Of a DNA stretch of 14,871 nt, positions 341-12,741 are shown in pieces. Position 1 is the stretch's first letter, and each line of letters starts with the position of its first letter. The stretch is from a virus (taxonomy: Duplodnaviria > Heunggongvirae > Uroviricota > Caudoviricetes): IMG/VR virus record IMGVR_UViG_2541047124_000022. One strand, written 5' to 3'. The notes beneath the pieces are model-generated. The model did no database searches. It saw only the letters and a program-made list of their open reading frames with translations, and was not told the DNA's origin. The translations under genes and the position numbers were made by a program.

Positions 341-417
341 TGGCGCGTTGTACTGGAGTCGAACCAGTGACCGATTGCTTAGAAGGCAATTGCTCTGTCC
401 GGCTGAGCTAAAAACGC
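341..417 (-). tRNA. tRNA-Arg, anticodon TCT (reads AGA), CCA encoded
   Basis: Reverse complement folds as a 77-nt cloverleaf: acceptor GCGTTTT/ACAACGC (one U.C mismatch at 6-67), D arm GCTC/GAGC, anticodon stem ATTGC/GCAAT with loop CTTCTAA, T arm ACTGG-TTCGACT-CCAGT, discriminator G, CCA. Confidence 0.85.
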
Positions 418-430
418 AGAATACCGATAA

Positions 431-507
431 TGGACCGCCATCGGGGACCCGAGCCCCGCGCAGCCAGCTTCGAAGGCTGGCGCTCTGTCACGATGAGCTA
501 ATGGCGG
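431..507 (-). tRNA. tRNA-Arg, anticodon TCG (reads CGA), atypical D and T loops, CCA encoded
   Basis: Reverse complement: acceptor CCGCCAT/ATGGCGG (7 perfect pairs), D stem GCTC/GAGC, anticodon stem CCAGC/GCTGG with loop CTTCGAA, T stem CGGGG/CCCCG, discriminator T, CCA. D loop lacks GG and T loop is CTCGGGT rather than TTCRANY, so it may be a phage-type or degenerate tRNA. Confidence 0.65.
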
Positions 508-1793: not shown

Positions 1794-2609
1794 TCAGTAA
1801 CTCGTTGCCTTCTCAAATTCTCTAGCCGCATGCCGCTCACCTTGATGCAGGATATCAACCAATTTTTCATAGAATGGTTTCCAATTGCGCGACCATGAAG
1901 ACTGGTGCAGATCGGGAATGTATATTTGAATAGCTCGATGAACATTAGCTGATTTGATAGATACGAATCCCTTTCCACTACAACGCTCGCAGATTTTAAA
2001 CACTGGCACACCACGCTCGCTTGTGGCTTTGCGGTCCAGTACCTCTCCCTTTCCACCACAACGACACCTGGCACTTATCACTCCCTTCCCTTTACATACA
2101 TCGCAAACGACTGGTACAACTTCCGTTACCTCTGTCCATTTTTCCCAGTCTGACGGTCGAACAGCACGGGAGCGACTGGCCCAATATGGTGCTTTACCCC
2201 ATGGGTATGAAACCTTACGAATGACCTGCTTACGGGGTGTTAGTCCGGTACCACTGCAACTATGGCATGTTACGCTGGTGGCCGCCGATCGGGAATACTC
2301 AGCAAAAGCAAACTGAGCCAGTACCAGCATACACCAGCCAAATTCACCACCAGCTGCTTTACGCACATTCTTCGGTGCAATTTCCATCGCGTGACGCGCC
2401 AGCGCCTGGACTGCCATCTGCTCATCAGTCTTGCTGATACCGGCCTTCCCGAAGAAGGCCGCCAGGCCAAACCGCTCACGATTGCTGGTGGTACCAATAG
2501 CCGCCATAACATCGGTGCCTGTAAGACGTTCCGGAGAGGTTCCTTTCACATCGTCGCCGATATACATTCCCTGAGGACTGAAGTATTTTAGCGATGCCTC
2601 AAGCTTCAT
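1794..2609 (-). CDS. Zinc-finger protein with four DnaJ-like CxxCxGxG repeats, 271 aa; possible Q-type late antiterminator by position
   Basis: Motifs CHSCSGTG, CDVCKGKG, CRCGGKG, CERCSGKG. Start overlaps upstream gene stop (TAATG). Last gene of the early-right operon, immediately upstream of the promoter-terminator unit. Confidence 0.8.
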   Translation of the reverse strand: MKLEASLKYFSPQGMYIGDDVKGTSPERLTGTDVMAAIGTTSNRERFGLAAFFGKAGISKTDEQMAVQALARHAMEIAPKNVRKAAGGEFGWCMLVLAQFAFAEYSRSAATSVTCHSCSGTGLTPRKQVIRKVSYPWGKAPYWASRSRAVRPSDWEKWTEVTEVVPVVCDVCKGKGVISARCRCGGKGEVLDRKATSERGVPVFKICERCSGKGFVSIKSANVHRAIQIYIPDLHQSSWSRNWKPFYEKLVDILHQGERHAAREFEKATSY

Positions 2610-8069: not shown

Positions 8070-8112
8070 TTAGCATTTTGCTATTGTCAAGAATAACGCA
8101 TAGCGCTACATT
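8070..8112 (+). promoter_or_regulatory. Left operator plus promoter for the plus-strand early operon
   Basis: Inverted repeat TTAGCA-TTT-TGCTA at 8070-8083 (same motif as right operators) abuts -35 TTGTCA (8084-8089), 17-nt spacer, -10 TACATT (8107-8112). Confidence 0.5.
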
Positions 8113-9156: not shown

Positions 9157-9522
9157 ATGACACATGAACCCATTAATACATATCGTCGCCGTATAGCTGT
9201 TGCGGCACTCCATCGAATAAAACGTAAAACAGGTGGTAATCTGCTTATTGTTGACCTTCCGGATGGGAACATTACGACCATAGAAATAACTGAACAGTTT
9301 ATAAACCAGTTGCTGTTACGCTTCGAAGGTATTACCCGTGGTGAATTGGGCCGGGTGGAGGGTGAAACCGAAATCCACACTGCATACCAGAATGCTATCG
9401 GGATTAATCAACATACTGAATACCTGACTGAAACCGGAAAGTTAATTATAGACACCTTTTTCAAGAGGTTATTGATTACGCGAAAGAAAAATATATCAGC
9501 GGAGGAATTAACTGATGGCTAA
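9157..9522 (+). CDS. Hypothetical protein, 121 aa
   Basis: ORF in the early operon; overlaps next gene by 8 nt. Confidence 0.5.
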   Translation: MTHEPINTYRRRIAVAALHRIKRKTGGNLLIVDLPDGNITTIEITEQFINQLLLRFEGITRGELGRVEGETEIHTAYQNAIGINQHTEYLTETGKLIIDTFFKRLLITRKKNISAEELTDG

Positions 9523-9730
9523 TTTATCCTCTGTATCTGTTGTGCACGAAAAAGTGCAGATCGTTATGATAATTGAAAATGGCCAAGTCACAGGTGTCTG
9601 CAAAGTCCGCGATGGCGAGCTGATTGCCAGCATGGATACATTCATACGGCTGGCAGAAAGAGCGGGGTATCAGATAACAGCACCTGCTCAGGAGGAAACC
9701 GGTGGCATTAACAGCAACACGCATTCCTGA
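9515..9730 (+). CDS. Hypothetical protein, 71 aa
   Basis: ATG with GGAGGA SD 7 nt upstream. Confidence 0.55.
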   Translation: MANLSSVSVVHEKVQIVMIIENGQVTGVCKVRDGELIASMDTFIRLAERAGYQITAPAQEETGGINSNTHS

Positions 9731-9920
9731 GCGGATCCACCGGCAGGCATTGCAGGTCCTGTTGTTGTACCGATGCCGACGGATATTTCCGCATCGGATA
9801 CAGCGCACCGGATATCTCAGTCTGAAGATTAACCGTCGCTGGCGGCTGTTATCGAAAGACGACGGCCGGAACTGGGAAGTAATGAGTCATGAACGTTATT
9901 CGGGAGAAATAAAGAAATGA
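9702..9920 (+). CDS. Arg-rich basic protein, 72 aa, GTG start
   Basis: GTG at 9702 with GGAGGA SD 5 nt upstream; stop overlaps next ATG (ATGA at 9917-9920); lies in a locally GC-rich segment. Confidence 0.4.
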   Translation: MALTATRIPERIHRQALQVLLLYRCRRIFPHRIQRTGYLSLKINRRWRLLSKDDGRNWEVMSHERYSGEIKK

Positions 9921-10309: not shown

Positions 10310-10369
10310 CGTAAACGAAATTAACCATGACGCAATTAAATAAGGCAAGCCGAATACATCAGGAGGACC

Positions 10370-10558
10370 ATGAACATTTATTTCAGAATAGTTATATCAC
10401 TGGCAATTATCACATGTATTTACGGATTAATCGTTCCGGCCCTCATATCAATGAAGGATACGGTAGCAGTGATTTCTGGCTTTGCTCTGGCGTGTCTGAC
10501 CCCGCCCTGCATTTATGCCATTTATAAGGGTCTTTCTTTTTCTAAGGATAAAAGATGA
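10370..10558 (+). CDS. Small membrane protein with two predicted TM helices, 62 aa
   Basis: Strong SD (CAGGAGGACC-ATG); hydrophobic stretches IVISLAIITCIYGLIVPALI and VAVISGFALACLTPPCIYAIY; ATGA-coupled to the downstream SPFH gene. Confidence 0.7.
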   Translation: MNIYFRIVISLAIITCIYGLIVPALISMKDTVAVISGFALACLTPPCIYAIYKGLSFSKDKR

Positions 10559-11382
10559 AAAAATTACTTTTTGCTTTAGCCCTTGTTCTGCCGACCATTG
10601 GCCTTGTCGGTTGCGATCGCGTTGAGCCTGGTAATGTGGGCATCAAAGTAAACAAACTGGGCGACGATAAAGGCGTCGGTGAAGTGGTCGGTGTTGGGCG
10701 CTACTGGACTGGATGGAACACTGAGGTTTACATCTTCCCGACCTTTAAGCAGATGAAGACCTACGATGATCCATTCAGTTTCCAGATGAGTGACGGTACA
10801 ACCATCGGCTATCACATCGGCGTGGCCTACAAAGTTGATCCATCCAAAGTTACCACGGTGTTTCAAACCTACCGCAAAGGCGTGGACGACATTACCGACA
10901 CCGACCTGCGCCAGAAGATAGCCGACGCACTCAACCGACTGGCCAGCAAAATGACCACCGACAAATTTATCGACGGCGGCAAGTCTGAGCTGCTGGATGC
11001 AGCTCTTAAAGACATTCAGGAAGAAATGACGCCCATCGGTATTCAGGTAATGAGCCTCTCATATGTGGGTAAGCCGGAGTACCCGCCTACTGTTATCGAC
11101 AGCATTAATGCCAAAGTCACGGCGAACCAGAAAACCCTGCAACGCGAGCAGGAAGTAAAACAGCGCGAAGCGGAAGCCAACATGTTGCGCGCGGAAGCTG
11201 CCGGACAGGCAGATGCGATTCGCACAAAAGCCCAGGCCGAAGCCGACGCTATTCGTTTACGCGGTGAAGCTCTGCGTCAGAACCCCGGTGTTATGGAGCT
11301 GGAAGCCATCAACAAGTGGAACGGTACACTGCCGCAATACATGACCAGCGGTGCCAACACACCATTTATTCAGGTTAAGTAA
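10555..11382 (+). CDS. SPFH/band-7 (prohibitin/HflC-like) lipoprotein, 275 aa
   Basis: Signal peptide with lipobox LVGC (Cys20); SPFH-like core; C-terminal Ala/Glu/Arg/Gln-rich coiled-coil region (QREQEVKQREAEANMLRAEAAGQADAIRTKAQAEADAIRLRGEA). Confidence 0.75.
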   Translation: MKKLLFALALVLPTIGLVGCDRVEPGNVGIKVNKLGDDKGVGEVVGVGRYWTGWNTEVYIFPTFKQMKTYDDPFSFQMSDGTTIGYHIGVAYKVDPSKVTTVFQTYRKGVDDITDTDLRQKIADALNRLASKMTTDKFIDGGKSELLDAALKDIQEEMTPIGIQVMSLSYVGKPEYPPTVIDSINAKVTANQKTLQREQEVKQREAEANMLRAEAAGQADAIRTKAQAEADAIRLRGEALRQNPGVMELEAINKWNGTLPQYMTSGANTPFIQVK

Positions 11383-11425
11383 TACATATGCCCGGTATTA
11401 CACGCCGGGCTGTCTGGAGATAAAA

Positions 11426-12175
11426 ATGAATATTGTAACCATCAACAACAAACAGTTTCCGGTAATCGAATATCGCGGTCAGCGTGTTGTGACATTTGCA
11501 ATGATTGATGACGTCCACCAGCGCCCGGAAGGTACCGCCCGTGCTGCGTTTAACCGCAACCGTTCTCACTTTATCGAAGGGGTGGATTTTCTTGAAATGA
11601 CTGCGGACGTAATACGTACGGAGTCACTTTCTGATGCCTTTGCCGCGCGAACTGCCAAAGGGATCATTCTTTTCGAGTCTGGTTACCTGATGTTGACGAA
11701 GCCTTTTAACGATACTCTTGCATGGCAGGTTCAGCGCGAACTGGTTAACAGCTATTTCCGAACTCACGCGCCGCTGACGGAAATGGAGATGATCGCTGCA
11801 ATGGCCGCCGATGCCGTTCGTCAGCAGAAGCGCCTGAGTCATGTTGAAGAGAAGATCGAAACGGTCACCAAAGCTGTGGAGAACATCAAACGCGGCACAA
11901 TGCGCACCGGATATGTCGGTTACCGCCAGGTGGTAGCCAAAAGCGGAATGAGTGACGCCAAGTGTCGGAATCTGGTCAACGCCTACCACATCCCTACCGA
12001 CACGCACGAATTTATGACTCCGGACGGTCTGTTGTCTCGCAGGGCTATCGTCGAGCTTGAGACATTTATGGCGGCATTCCACCAAATGATGTCAGAGGCT
12101 GAACCACGCGGCACACGCTGGTATCACCCGAATATGGGGCTTTTCCAGGTAATCGGATGGGAGGATAAAGCATGA
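11426..12175 (+). CDS. Rha/ORF6N-family phage regulatory protein (antirepressor-like), 250 aa
   Basis: ATG at 11426 with GGAGA SD 5 nt upstream (tracked ORF starts earlier in the same frame); N-terminal segment GQRVVTFAMIDDVHQRPEGTARAAFNRNRSHFIEGVDF matches the Rha/ORF6N pattern from memory. Confidence 0.55.
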   Translation: MNIVTINNKQFPVIEYRGQRVVTFAMIDDVHQRPEGTARAAFNRNRSHFIEGVDFLEMTADVIRTESLSDAFAARTAKGIILFESGYLMLTKPFNDTLAWQVQRELVNSYFRTHAPLTEMEMIAAMAADAVRQQKRLSHVEEKIETVTKAVENIKRGTMRTGYVGYRQVVAKSGMSDAKCRNLVNAYHIPTDTHEFMTPDGLLSRRAIVELETFMAAFHQMMSEAEPRGTRWYHPNMGLFQVIGWEDKA

Positions 12176-12741
12176 TCATCCAGTCAAAACTTATTCGCGC
12201 CGCTCTGGTGTGCGCTGCTAAAAACGACGTTCGTTATTACCTGAACGGTCTTCACATCAAGCCAAAACATATTGAGGCAACCAATGGTTTCGTAGCACTG
12301 CGCATGACTCACGGCATCCGGACGAAGAAAAACATCATTGTCCAGTTCGAAGGTGGCGTCCCGGCCAAAGCCGAAACGACAGAGCTGATTTTTAGTAAAG
12401 AGCCGATCGCTGTTCATCGCGACCAGTTTCAGCGCCGACTGTCCATTACCGGCATTAAATTGGTGGGCGGTTGTTTTCCGGATTTGGAACGCATCATTCC
12501 GAAAAAATTTGACCTCTGTACACACCCGGTGATCCAGGCGGGTTACCTGAGTTATCCAGAGAAGATGTTTGGTCGTGAGCGTAAATTTATTCCCGTCCAG
12601 TTACGTCCCTCCGGTGACGGGCAAGCGGTCAGAATTCAGTTTGATTCCATCATCAACTCAATGTATGGCAATCCTGAATTTGTTGTGATGCCTTGTCGTG
12701 ATCATGGCGATTTCAATGTGGCTCAGGAGCATCCGGAATGA
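12172..12741 (+). CDS. Truncated beta sliding-clamp (DnaN) homolog, 189 aa
   Basis: DVRYYLNG motif plus segments aligning by eye to E. coli DnaN domain II and C-terminus (ITGIKLVGGCFPDLERIIPKKFD; FVVMPCR). Too short to hold three clamp domains. ATGA coupling at both ends. Confidence 0.55.
   Translation: MIIQSKLIRAALVCAAKNDVRYYLNGLHIKPKHIEATNGFVALRMTHGIRTKKNIIVQFEGGVPAKAETTELIFSKEPIAVHRDQFQRRLSITGIKLVGGCFPDLERIIPKKFDLCTHPVIQAGYLSYPEKMFGRERKFIPVQLRPSGDGQAVRIQFDSIINSMYGNPEFVVMPCRDHGDFNVAQEHPE

What the first reader, a model, noticed from the sequence alone, without database searches (positions are those of the whole stretch)
10370..11382. SPFH/band-7 lipoprotein with a small two-TM partner in the early-left operon
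A 62-aa two-helix membrane protein is ATGA-coupled to a 275-aa lipoprotein with an SPFH core and a long C-terminal coiled coil. Cellular SPFH proteins (HflK/HflC) scaffold the FtsH protease, which degrades lambda CII, so a prophage-encoded homolog in the cIII-like position could modulate FtsH and bias lysis-lysogeny decisions. Alternatively, a membrane pair expressed from the lysogenic early region fits a superinfection-exclusion or envelope-level anti-phage function. I do not recognise this pair as a described phage system.
Basis: partly seen in the sequence, partly recalled or inferred. Interest (0 to 1): 0.6.

Follow-up and report, generated by a model that had tools for sequence, protein, structure and literature searches.

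The report
Phage SPFH lipoprotein with membrane-hairpin partner
The two genes are real and form a widespread, mobile phage cassette: a small two-helix membrane protein plus an inner-membrane lipoprotein of the cage-forming SPFH (HflK/C, prohibitin) type. The cassette is already catalogued but nobody has tested its function, so it is an interesting known unknown rather than a new kind of system.

Summary
A 62-aa two-TM protein (10370-10558) overlaps by ATGA a 275-aa lipoprotein (10555-11382) that has a Band_7/SPFH core and a 65-residue helix. Both sit in the early-left operon of a phiP27-like prophage at yecE.

The genes are not orphans. They belong to PHROG families phrog_1130 and phrog_200. 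The SPFH gene matches 780 phage records and about 10% of complete E. coli genomes, in lambdoid/Stx, P2-like, P1-like and N4-like phages.

New findings here:
- The hairpin partner accompanies the SPFH gene in 78 of 80 diverse viral loci and is fused in frame to it in at least 13 protein clusters.
- Asp follows the lipid-modified Cys in 101 of 105 recognised lipoboxes, which predicts inner-membrane retention.
- The mature SPFH protein is under extreme purifying selection (dN/dS 0.006-0.035).
- No other neighbouring gene is conserved.

The best reading is a self-contained, early-lytic module that builds a periplasm-facing SPFH ring or cage on the inner membrane, with the hairpin supplying the transmembrane part. 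What the cage holds is unknown. The module is not an HflK/HflC orthologue, not an NfeD pair, not a PADLOC defence system and not a serine protease. No functional study was found.

The parts
10361..10366 (+). Shine-Dalgarno-like AGGAGG, ending 3 nt before the ATG of the small gene
   Evidence: Read from the sequence
10370..10558 (+). 62-aa two-TM hairpin partner (phrog_1130). The conserved inter-helix loop Y-G-x-x-x-P-x-L-I-S-x-K-D-T covers residues 18-31. Pro23, Ser27 and Gly37 are invariant across 13 aligned partners.
   Evidence: ORF. phrog_1130 at E=1.5e-23. 12 of 13 partners from different phages match phrog_1130. Alignment A3. No Pfam or NfeD hit. dN/dS 0.30 against phiP27.
10544..10558 (+). 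Translational coupling region: AAGGA (10544-10548) inside the 3' end of the small gene, and the ATGA start/stop overlap (10555-10558)
   Evidence: Read from the sequence. The same 4-nt or short overlap is seen in P88, N4, Pylas, ORM_20 and the Nevskia and Cohaesibacter prophages.
10555..11382 (+). 275-aa SPFH/Band-7 lipoprotein (phrog_200)
   Evidence: Pfam PF01145 at E=8e-31. phrog_200 at E=1e-114. AF2 model. Foldseek full-length matches to prohibitin, HflK/C, erlin, stomatin, flotillin and QmcA.
10555..10617 (+). Lipoprotein signal peptide (residues 1-19), lipobox L17-V18-G19-C20 and Asp21 at position +2
   Evidence: Read from the sequence. A lipobox with Cys was recognised in 105 of 120 close homologues, and the residue after Cys is Asp in 101 of those 105. 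Cys20 is at least 90% conserved across alignment A1.
10612..10839 (+). Membrane-proximal N-lobe of the SPFH domain (residues 20-95), starting one or two residues after the lipid-modified Cys. It is the most conserved part of the protein.
   Evidence: 28 of 76 positions are at least 90% conserved, against 14 of 81 in the C-lobe and 15 of 67 in the helix. Beta-strands span residues 19-94 in the model.
11086..11280 (+). Single long helix (residues 178-242), the coiled-coil 'wall' element of cage-forming SPFH proteins
   Evidence: AF2 secondary structure. It aligns with the HflK helix region.
11317..11334 (+). Invariant C-terminal motif W255-x-G257-x-x-P260
   Evidence: Invariant columns in the 61-sequence alignment A1
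8084..8112 (+). Context: the only sigma-70-like promoter match upstream on this strand (TTGTCA-17-TACATT). It is the likely pL-type promoter of the operon that contains the pair.
   Evidence: Consensus scan only. No promoter-like or terminator-like site on the + strand lies between 9186 and the pair or just after it.

Best explanation
The two genes are a self-contained phage accessory module, phrog_1130 plus phrog_200, that moves between unrelated phage lineages.

Shown: the genes are translationally coupled, co-inherited almost without exception, and sometimes fused into one polypeptide. The large protein has the complete architecture of ring- or cage-forming SPFH proteins: an SPFH core, one long helix and a conserved C-terminal motif. 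It carries a lipoprotein signal with Asp at +2. The mature protein is under extreme purifying selection.

Inferred: the lipoprotein stays in the outer leaflet of the inner membrane with its SPFH domain in the periplasm. This is the orientation of HflK/C, not of QmcA or YqiK. It oligomerises into a ring or dome. The N-in/C-in hairpin partner supplies the transmembrane 'fence' or anchor that single-chain SPFH proteins carry themselves, and touches the highly conserved membrane-proximal lobe through its conserved periplasmic loop. The module is made early in lytic growth from the pL-type operon, not from the repressed prophage.

Role (a low-confidence commitment): the ring encloses and so regulates or shields a conserved host inner-membrane component during infection. 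FtsH is the single most likely named client, at roughly 25-30%. Generic stabilisation of the inner membrane until lysis is about equally likely. Exclusion of superinfecting phages is somewhat less likely. The confidence given is for the module and its structural mechanism, not for any one client.
For: Real, coupled genes.

SPFH identity and full-length structural similarity to cage formers: prohibitin 8rrh E=2e-13, HflK/C 7vhq and 7wi3, erlin, stomatin, flotillin, QmcA 8z5g.

Partner linkage:
- An HMM built from 10 partners hits 78 of 80 diverse IMG/VR loci. That is 79 hits among 5182 ORF segments, all on the SPFH strand, and 68 are directly adjacent to the SPFH gene.
- The partner is also present in P88, a P1-like phage, N4, Pylas, 4MG, Gekk3-15, ORM_20, PaCe and the Nevskia and Cohaesibacter prophages.
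- At least 13 of the 150 best representative clusters are in-frame N-terminal fusions of the form hairpin-linker-lipobox-SPFH. One further cluster carries the partner at the C-terminus.
- No other neighbouring gene is conserved.

Inner-membrane retention: Asp at +2 in 101 of 105 recognised lipoboxes, combined with the E. coli '+2 rule' (established knowledge). The SPFH fold also starts almost immediately after Cys20, with no linker.

Constraint: dN/dS is 0.006-0.008 against the P2-like and P1-like copies despite dS of 0.5-1.1. The N-lobe is the most conserved region.

Mobility: the gene matches 780 phage records and 535 of 5426 E. coli genomes, on both chromosomes and plasmids.

Early-lytic placement: it lies inside the pL-type operon with no flanking promoter or terminator match, among the early genes of P88 and beside the RNAP2 gene of N4. 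SPFH peptides were detected in lysates of Vi01-like and jumbo phages.
Against: There is no experiment on any member of the family.
- Oligomerisation was not modelled. The monomer pTM is only 0.57 and the tail has low confidence.
- Contact between partner and SPFH is inferred only from synteny and fusions.
- The +2 rule is an E. coli rule. Arg at +3 may weaken retention. Homologues in other hosts carry S, E, R or N at +2.
- A prophage HflK/C-like lipoprotein of Pasteurella was reported in outer-membrane vesicles (PMC9872710). Its relationship to this subfamily was not checked.
- The promoter scan is a crude consensus search and could miss a weak or non-sigma-70 promoter.
- The client is unknown, and none of the proposed roles has direct support.
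Confidence: 0.55

Rival explanations
1. One reading: the phage SPFH protein mimics or competes with HflK/C and modulates FtsH. This would stabilise CII/CIII-type regulators and bias the lysis-lysogeny decision.
For: It has the same periplasmic orientation as HflK/C (inferred from the lipobox). HflK and HflC are among the few solved relatives detectable by sequence. The two closest structural groups, prohibitin and HflK/C, both partner FtsH-family proteases (established knowledge). It occupies the same operon position as lambda cIII, a known FtsH inhibitor (established knowledge). Extreme conservation fits a conserved host target.
Against: It scores far below the HflK and HflC equivalog cut-offs and shares only 15-19% identity with them in structural alignments. 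The same module is found in strictly virulent phages, which make no lysogeny decision: N4, Pylas, 4MG, Kuttervirus and Ounavirinae. Distantly related SPFH genes occur in haloarchaeal viruses, and their hosts lack FtsH (own knowledge). No FtsH-contact residues could be mapped. The narrow lysogeny-bias version is therefore unlikely, but a general FtsH-caging role remains open.
Confidence: 0.2
2. Superinfection exclusion or envelope-level anti-phage function. Early after infection or induction, the pair blocks genome entry of other phages at the inner membrane, as the T4 Imm/Sp pair does.
For: It is an early-expressed envelope pair and a mobile accessory cassette. PHROGs classes the partner under 'moron, auxiliary metabolic gene and host takeover'. 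In N4 it lies next to gp18, which is 'similar to P22 gp17'. In PhiSH19 it lies next to an annotated superinfection exclusion gene.
Against: There is no PADLOC hit and no PHROG hit to any exclusion family. The near-identical mature protein in phages with unrelated entry machinery, together with dN/dS of 0.006-0.035, is not what an arms race with phage ejection proteins would produce. It is probably silent in the lysogen.
Confidence: 0.18
3. Generic membrane homeostasis or lysis timing. The SPFH ring stabilises or organises the inner membrane (proton motive force, holin rafts, secretion of lysis enzymes) until programmed lysis and has no specific protein client.
For: SPFH proteins in general organise membranes. 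B. subtilis YdjI links PspA to the membrane (PMC8581546, listed). The Kayvirus SPFH gene mbpS sits in the lysis module between lysK and tgl. Viral SPFH genes occur in phages of Gram-negative and Gram-positive bacteria, in archaeal viruses and in giant viruses, which fits a target as universal as the bilayer itself.
Against: In this window and most Gram-negative phages the pair is not near the lysis genes. There is no direct evidence. This reading does not explain why the hairpin loop motif is conserved.
Confidence: 0.22
4. Lysogenic-conversion virulence factor. The lipoprotein is exported to outer-membrane vesicles and acts on the animal host as a TLR2 agonist, as reported for Pasteurella PM0222.
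For: A prophage-encoded HflK/C-like lipoprotein of P. multocida activates TLR1/2 and contributes to virulence (PMC9872710). This prophage is from a cattle E. coli strain, and related copies lie in Stx2 phages.
Against: Any triacylated lipoprotein stimulates TLR2 (established knowledge). The module is common in environmental and virulent phages that have no animal host. Asp at +2 argues for inner-membrane retention. No prophage-independent promoter was found.
Confidence: 0.04
5. Database annotation 'putative serine protease', or a host housekeeping operon captured by chance.
For: The gene is annotated 'serine protease' in phiP27 and many Stx2 phage records.
Against: Band_7 is the only Pfam domain, and there is no protease or NfeD/ClpP-like domain. 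The fold is SPFH throughout. The gene is absent from about 90% of E. coli genomes, and every context examined is a phage, a prophage or a P1-type phage record.
Confidence: 0.01

Closest known systems
E. coli HflK/HflC-FtsH complex
   Same: A periplasm-facing SPFH assembly on the inner membrane. It has an SPFH core, a long helix and a C-terminal cap region. It is a weak but detectable sequence relative (E=2e-4 to 4e-5) and a full-length structural match.
   Different: This protein is one gene, not two paralogues. It is anchored by a lipid rather than an N-terminal TM helix, and it has a separate two-TM partner. Identity is 15-19%, and it scores far below the HflK and HflC model cut-offs. It is phage-borne. 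Binding to FtsH is untested.
SPFH-NfeD operons (for example E. coli QmcA-YbbJ, PDB 8z5g)
   Same: An SPFH gene is translationally coupled to a small membrane-protein gene. QmcA is the best profile hit among solved structures (E=2.6e-6). It is the closest precedent for a membrane partner living with an SPFH cage.
   Different: The partner here has 62 aa, no OB-fold or NfeD domain and no Pfam match. It lies upstream of the SPFH gene. QmcA faces the cytoplasm (established knowledge), whereas this protein is predicted to face the periplasm.
PHROG families phrog_200 ('lipoprotein') and phrog_1130 ('membrane protein'), including N4 gp20/gp19, P88 gp12/gp11, phiP27 L05 and Pylas gp29/gp28
   Same: These are true family membership: E=1e-114 and 1.5e-23, with the same gene order and overlap.
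   Different: Nothing differs in kind. This is one more member. The families have no assigned function, and I found no description of the pairing itself in the literature that could be searched.
Lambda CIII (FtsH inhibitor in the pL operon)
   Same: It has a similar operon position, and it is the precedent for a temperate phage targeting FtsH from its early-left operon (established knowledge).
   Different: There is no sequence or structural relationship. CIII is a small cytoplasmic or amphipathic peptide, whereas this is a periplasmic lipoprotein with a membrane hairpin.
Phage early envelope exclusion proteins (T4 Imm/Sp, T5 Llp, Cor, P22 SieA)
   Same: They are small membrane protein and/or lipoprotein products made early and located in the envelope (established knowledge; PMC10883804 and PMC9586334, listed).
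   Different: No homology was detected. Those proteins are lineage-specific and fast-evolving, whereas this SPFH protein is extremely conserved across phage lineages.
Kayvirus MbpS/MbpV and haloarchaeal-virus SPFH proteins
   Same: A viral SPFH gene lies next to a small membrane-protein gene.
   Different: They are anchored by a TM segment rather than a lipobox, and the partner has one TM. Identity is about 25%. In Kayvirus the gene lies in the lysis module.

Membership tests
SPFH / Band-7 superfamily (Pfam PF01145) | Sequence match to the Band_7 model above its gathering score | tested here: met
   107.9 bits against a cut-off of 23.6, E=8e-31, residues 22-208
SPFH / Band-7 superfamily (Pfam PF01145) | SPFH alpha/beta fold followed by a long helix, as in ring- or cage-forming members | tested here: met
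   AF2 mean pLDDT 81. Foldseek full-length matches to prohibitin, HflK/C, erlin, stomatin, flotillin and QmcA at E=1e-13 to 1e-7.
SPFH / Band-7 superfamily (Pfam PF01145) | Assembly into a large homo- or hetero-oligomeric ring or cage | not testable with these tools
   Only a monomer could be modelled. Testing needs multimer prediction or cryo-EM.
HflK / HflC (FtsH modulators) | Match to the equivalog models TIGR01933 (hflK) or TIGR01932 (hflC) above cut-off | tested here: not met
   23.4 bits against 159.4 and 25.4 bits against 134.4
HflK / HflC (FtsH modulators) | N-terminal transmembrane anchor with the SPFH domain in the periplasm | tested here: inconclusive
   A periplasmic location is predicted, but through a lipobox and lipid anchor rather than a TM helix. 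The TM element may be supplied in trans by the partner.
HflK / HflC (FtsH modulators) | Physical complex with FtsH | not testable with these tools
   No interaction data exist. The reported HflK contact residue could not be mapped reliably at this level of identity.
SPFH-NfeD operon | The partner carries an NfeD domain (membrane segment plus C-terminal OB-fold) | tested here: not met
   No Pfam hit at E<=0.01 for the window protein. No NfeD among hits at E<=1 for 13 partners. At 62 aa there is no room for an OB-fold.
SPFH-NfeD operon | Conserved co-transcribed membrane partner next to the SPFH gene | tested here: met
   Found in 78 of 80 loci, directly adjacent in 68. In-frame fusions also exist.
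Bacterial lipoprotein (Lgt/LspA substrate), inner-membrane retained | Signal peptide with lipobox [LVI][ASTVI][GAS]C | tested here: met
   L17-V18-G19-C20. A lipobox was recognised in 105 of 120 close homologues and in all proteobacterial phage examples read.
Bacterial lipoprotein (Lgt/LspA substrate), inner-membrane retained | Asp at position +2 (the Lol-avoidance signal in E. coli) | tested here: met
   Asp21 in the window protein, and Asp in 101 of 105 recognised lipoboxes. Actual localisation cannot be tested here.
PHROG phrog_200 + phrog_1130 | Profile matches for both proteins | tested here: met
   E=9.7e-115 and 1.5e-23. 12 of 13 partners match phrog_1130.
Known anti-phage defence systems (PADLOC-DB v2) | Match to any component model | tested here: not met
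   No hit at E<=0.1 for either protein
Serine protease (existing database annotation) | A protease domain or fold | tested here: not met
   Band_7 is the only domain, and the fold is SPFH throughout

The most novel reading that the evidence does not exclude
The module is a phage-specific 'split' SPFH cage, made of a lipid-anchored wall protein and a separate transmembrane hairpin. Phages of many lineages would deploy it early in infection to capture a conserved host inner-membrane machine from the periplasmic side. The machine could be FtsH, or a channel or ion-motor complex of the kind other SPFH or FliL rings encircle. This would be a general and so far undescribed host-takeover device, present in hundreds of sequenced phages and about a tenth of E. 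coli genomes.
Probability: 0.3. Interest if true: 0.75.

Novelty: new variant of a known kind. Interest (0 to 1): 0.5.

Why it matters
SPFH cages (HflK/C, prohibitins, stomatin, flotillin, erlins) have only recently been understood structurally, and their clients are still debated. Here a virus-borne version has been reduced to two small genes. It is under extraordinary constraint, it is exchanged between lambdoid/Stx, P2-like, P1-like and N4-like phages, and it is easy to manipulate.

Finding its client would show what phages need to control at the inner membrane early in infection. It could also give a minimal model for how SPFH rings select and enclose membrane proteins. If the client is FtsH, that would link a common Stx-phage and phage-plasmid gene to the stability of regulators and of LpxC. 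If the module excludes other phages, it would be a new exclusion principle.

The pairing rule, the fusions, the inner-membrane prediction and the selection data turn a vaguely annotated 'lipoprotein' or 'serine protease' into a defined two-gene system that can be tested.

Tried and rejected
- **NfeD-like partner:** rejected. There is no Pfam hit and the protein is too short.
- **HflK or HflC orthology:** rejected. Scores are far below the model cut-offs, and the profile search ranks QmcA, HflK, HflC and prohibitin all weakly.
- **Known defence system:** no PADLOC hit.
- **Serine protease annotation:** rejected.
- **Host housekeeping operon:** rejected.
- **Own promoter or terminator (a classical moron):** none was found, either here or in the P1-like context. 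The scan is crude.
- **Third conserved gene:** none was found in 80 diverse loci.
- **Mapping the reported HflK-FtsH contact (Arg191) onto this protein:** the alignment register did not place an Arg at that position, so I dropped this line.
- **First IMG/VR scan:** the window protein returned only near-identical loci (97-100%), which was useless for testing co-occurrence. The scan was repeated with a divergent alignment.
- **Literature:** eight searches on SPFH, HflK or band 7 combined with phage, prophage, superinfection, anti-phage or lipoprotein terms found no functional study, only annotations and speculation. One further search failed on a term that was too short.
- **Not attempted:** a second structure job on the natural fusion P0002. 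The tool returns no inter-residue confidence, so it could not test the partner-SPFH contact.
Full report
**1. The observation**

The window holds a 62-aa ORF at 10370-10558 and a 275-aa ORF at 10555-11382 on the + strand. The stop of the first overlaps the start of the second as ATGA. Both have Shine-Dalgarno-like sequences: AGGAGG at 10361-10366 and AAGGA at 10544-10548.

The large protein matches Pfam Band_7/SPFH at E=8e-31 over residues 22-208. It begins with a signal peptide that ends in the lipobox L-V-G-C20. An AlphaFold2 model built on a 61-sequence alignment has mean pLDDT 81. It shows an alpha/beta core (residues 19-176), one helix of 65 residues (178-242), a short helix (244-254) and a low-confidence tail.

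The small protein has two hydrophobic segments joined by a short polar loop, with positive charges at both ends, which suggests an N-in/C-in hairpin. Compared with phiP27, both genes evolve under purifying selection: dN/dS is 0.035 for the SPFH gene and 0.30 for the small gene.

**2. Where the window comes from**

The 1.1-kb region is 100% identical to the chromosome of E. coli strain 10671 (cattle faeces, UK). There it lies in a prophage integrated at the yecE (DUF72) locus.

The gene order is as follows. On the - strand lie two tRNA-Arg genes, a Q-type antiterminator, a toprim primase and a helicase. On the + strand lie two HTH regulators, a string of small genes, the pair, an ORF6N anti-repressor-like gene, a clamp-like gene, xis and int. 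The closest sequenced phage is phiP27, where the SPFH gene is L05, in the same position next to xis and int. A set of Stx2a/Stx2d phages follows.

The only sigma-70-like promoter match on this strand upstream of the pair is at 8084-8112, just after the repressor-like gene. No promoter-like or terminator-like site flanks the pair. 'Early-left operon' is therefore a fair description. The pair is probably transcribed with the delayed-early genes after induction or infection, not from the repressed prophage. This step is an inference from a crude scan.

**3. The family**

The pair is not an orphan. The large protein is phrog_200 ('lipoprotein', E=1e-114), and the small one is phrog_1130 ('membrane protein', E=1.5e-23), which PHROGs places under 'moron, auxiliary metabolic gene and host takeover'.

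- tblastn finds the SPFH protein in 780 of 50,697 phage records. These include lambdoid/Stx phages, P2-like P88, P1-like phages, N4 and N4-like phages, Vequintavirinae, Ounavirinae, Kuttervirus and jumbo phages. They also include phages of Pseudomonas, Burkholderia, Aeromonas, Ochrobactrum and Caulobacter, crAss-like phages and Lak megaphages. At about 25% identity there are also Staphylococcus Kayvirus MbpS and haloarchaeal viruses.
- In E. coli, 535 of 5426 complete genomes carry the gene, at 422 chromosomal and 198 plasmid places.
- In the library of 50%-identity representatives, 227 clusters match at E<=1e-30.
- Two chromosomal homologues in Nevskia and Cohaesibacter lie in prophage-like regions.

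This rejects the idea of a host housekeeping operon.

**4. The pairing is the rule**

The small partners of P88 (gp11), a P1-like phage (unannotated ORF), N4 (gp19), Pylas (gp28), 4MG (gene 114), Gekk3-15, ORM_20 and the two prophages are homologous to the window protein. They share a loop motif, roughly Y/F-G-x-x-x-P-x-L-[IV]-S-x-x-[DS]-[ST], with Pro, Ser and a downstream Gly invariant across 13 aligned partners. Twelve of the 13 match phrog_1130.

An HMM built from ten partners was run against all six-frame ORF segments of 80 diverse IMG/VR loci. These loci were chosen only for encoding an SPFH relative (46-68% identical to the ORM_20 protein, about 40% to the window protein). The HMM hit 78 loci. 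There were 79 hits among 5182 segments, all on the SPFH strand, and 68 were directly adjacent to the SPFH start. In Pseudomonas phage PaCe a divergent copy lies two genes upstream.

At least 13 of the 150 best representative clusters are single polypeptides of the form hairpin-linker-signal/lipobox-SPFH. One cluster has the partner at the C-terminus. A P1-like variant (P0002) is fused through loss of one A in an A7 run, which may be a sequencing error. No other neighbouring gene is conserved across the 80 loci. The module is therefore exactly these two genes, and the fusions argue that the two products act together physically.

**5. Location and shape**

Asp follows the lipid-modified Cys in 101 of the 105 close homologues in which a lipobox was recognised. 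In E. coli, Asp at +2 is the Lol-avoidance signal that keeps a lipoprotein in the inner membrane (established knowledge). The SPFH fold starts almost immediately after Cys20, with no linker. The predicted location is therefore the outer leaflet of the inner membrane, facing the periplasm. Among E. coli's own SPFH proteins, only HflK/C has this orientation (established knowledge).

Foldseek aligns the whole model to ring and cage formers: prohibitin (8rrh, E=2e-13), HflK/C (7vhq, 7wi3), erlin, stomatin, flotillin, major vault protein and QmcA. By sequence the family is equally distant from all of them. Against the sequences of solved structures, a profile of alignment A1 scores QmcA 2.6e-6, HflK 4e-5, HflC 3e-4 and prohibitin 2e-3, and it fails the HflK and HflC equivalog models by a wide margin. 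It is a distinct SPFH subfamily.

The most conserved part is the membrane-proximal N-lobe (residues 20-95), where 28 of 76 positions are at least 90% conserved. There is also an invariant W-x-G-x-x-P motif near the C-terminus.

The simplest structural reading is a 'split' version of a single-chain SPFH protein. The lipoprotein forms the periplasmic wall, and the hairpin provides the membrane-spanning part through its conserved periplasmic loop. Oligomerisation and the contact itself are inferred, not shown.

**6. Evolutionary behaviour**

Nucleotide similarity between this prophage and the P2-like and P1-like copies starts at the lipobox (about 10603) and ends about 30 nt before the stop (about 11349). 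The signal peptide and the partner differ between lineages. Across that shared segment dS reaches 0.55-1.1, but dN is only 0.004-0.009, giving dN/dS of 0.006-0.008.

Such constraint fits a protein with many self-contacts, or one that binds a conserved host component. It is not what is expected of a protein in an arms race with the ejection machinery of other phages.

**7. What it does**

No experiment exists. Genome papers call the phage SPFH gene unexplained or speculate about HflKC/FtsH, lysogeny, Sec-dependent secretion or adsorption (PMC13239085, PMC8540360, PMC10269572, PMC4936722, PMC7150955). A prophage HflK/C-like lipoprotein of Pasteurella was studied only as a TLR1/2 agonist (PMC9872710).

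I weigh the options as follows.

- **FtsH caging.** In favour: the orientation, the fact that the closest structural groups (prohibitin and HflK/C) both partner FtsH-family proteases, the lambda cIII precedent and the strong conservation. Against: the lack of orthology, the module's presence in virulent phages, and distant relatives in archaeal viruses whose hosts lack FtsH (own knowledge). A role limited to the lysis-lysogeny decision is unlikely. A general FtsH role is possible, at roughly 25-30% including the narrow version.
- **Generic membrane stabilisation or lysis timing.** This fits the very broad host range and the Kayvirus lysis-module position, but has no direct support (about 20-25%).
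- **Early superinfection exclusion.** This fits the timing, the location and some gene neighbourhoods (N4 gp18, the PhiSH19 exclusion gene), but not the conservation pattern. There is also no PADLOC hit (about 15-20%).
- **Virulence lipoprotein, protease and housekeeping capture.** These are minor or rejected.

**8. Verdict**

The finding is real and the description accurate. The thing itself belongs to catalogued but uncharacterised phage families. It is a phage-specific variant of the SPFH-plus-membrane-partner theme: lipid-anchored, periplasm-facing, and with a non-NfeD hairpin partner.

Interest is moderate. The system is widespread, well defined and testable, but its existence would not surprise a specialist.

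Noticed in passing
window 341-417 and 431-507 (- strand); 1794-2609 (- strand): Two tRNA-Arg genes (anticodons TCT and TCG) lie downstream of a Q-type antiterminator gene. This arrangement usually precedes stx genes in Stx phages (own knowledge). In the identical genome the next gene is a DUF6645 protein, not stx.
   Followed up: partly
window 12172-12741 (+): This 189-aa protein is named 'RusA-like Holliday junction resolvase' by phrog_3007. It gives weak hits to DnaN and to sliding-clamp or processivity-factor models (TIGR00663 E=8e-4; phrog_947, phrog_6615). It may be a half-size clamp-like protein, and the PHROG name may be wrong.
   Followed up: no
window 9702-9920 (+): In the identical genome PGAP annotates this 72-aa ORF as a 'ParE family toxin-like protein'. 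It overlaps its neighbours, and no antitoxin partner is obvious.
   Followed up: no
window 9157-9522 (+): The ORF is intact here (121 aa, phrog_1737 at E=2e-46), but PGAP marks the same stretch as a frameshifted pseudogene in the identical genome.
   Followed up: no
window 11390-11410 (+): A 6-bp GC-rich inverted repeat (GCCCGG ... CCGGGC) lies just after the SPFH stop codon. No T-run follows it, and the terminator scan did not report it.
   Followed up: no
window about 10603 and about 11349; L002, L003: There are mosaic breakpoints. Nucleotide similarity to the P2-like and P1-like copies begins at the lipobox and ends about 30 nt before the stop. The mature SPFH coding segment is therefore exchanged or conserved separately from the signal peptide and partner.
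   Followed up: partly
L003 3731-3967 and 3948-4775 (P1-like phage MH445380); protein P0002: The partner ORF is unannotated in the P1-like record, where it overlaps the SPFH start at an A7 run. P0002 (347 aa, 8 member sequences) is an in-frame fusion that fits loss of one A. This could be a real fusion, slippage or a sequencing error. In these P1-like phages the pair lies between the dmt methylase gene and the ban helicase gene, where P1 itself carries tciABC (own knowledge).
   Followed up: partly
L085 2224-2538 (phage N4 gp18): The gene just upstream of the N4 gp19-gp20 pair is annotated 'similar to P22 gp17', a gene linked to escape from prophage exclusion (own knowledge). This hints that the region holds conflict genes.
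   Followed up: no
L092 16626-17839 (outside the window, E. coli 10671): An IS1203 element sits directly beyond the prophage int gene and interrupts the yecE (DUF72) attachment region.
   Followed up: no
L177 2166-3265; L176 1180-2191; L178 855-2028: Distant viral SPFH genes (Kayvirus mbpS, Haloarcula virus HJTV-3 gp82, Caulobacter phage CcrSwift gp177) also have an adjacent small membrane-protein gene, but of a different type (one TM or multi-TM). 'SPFH plus small membrane partner' may be a general viral theme.
   Followed up: partly
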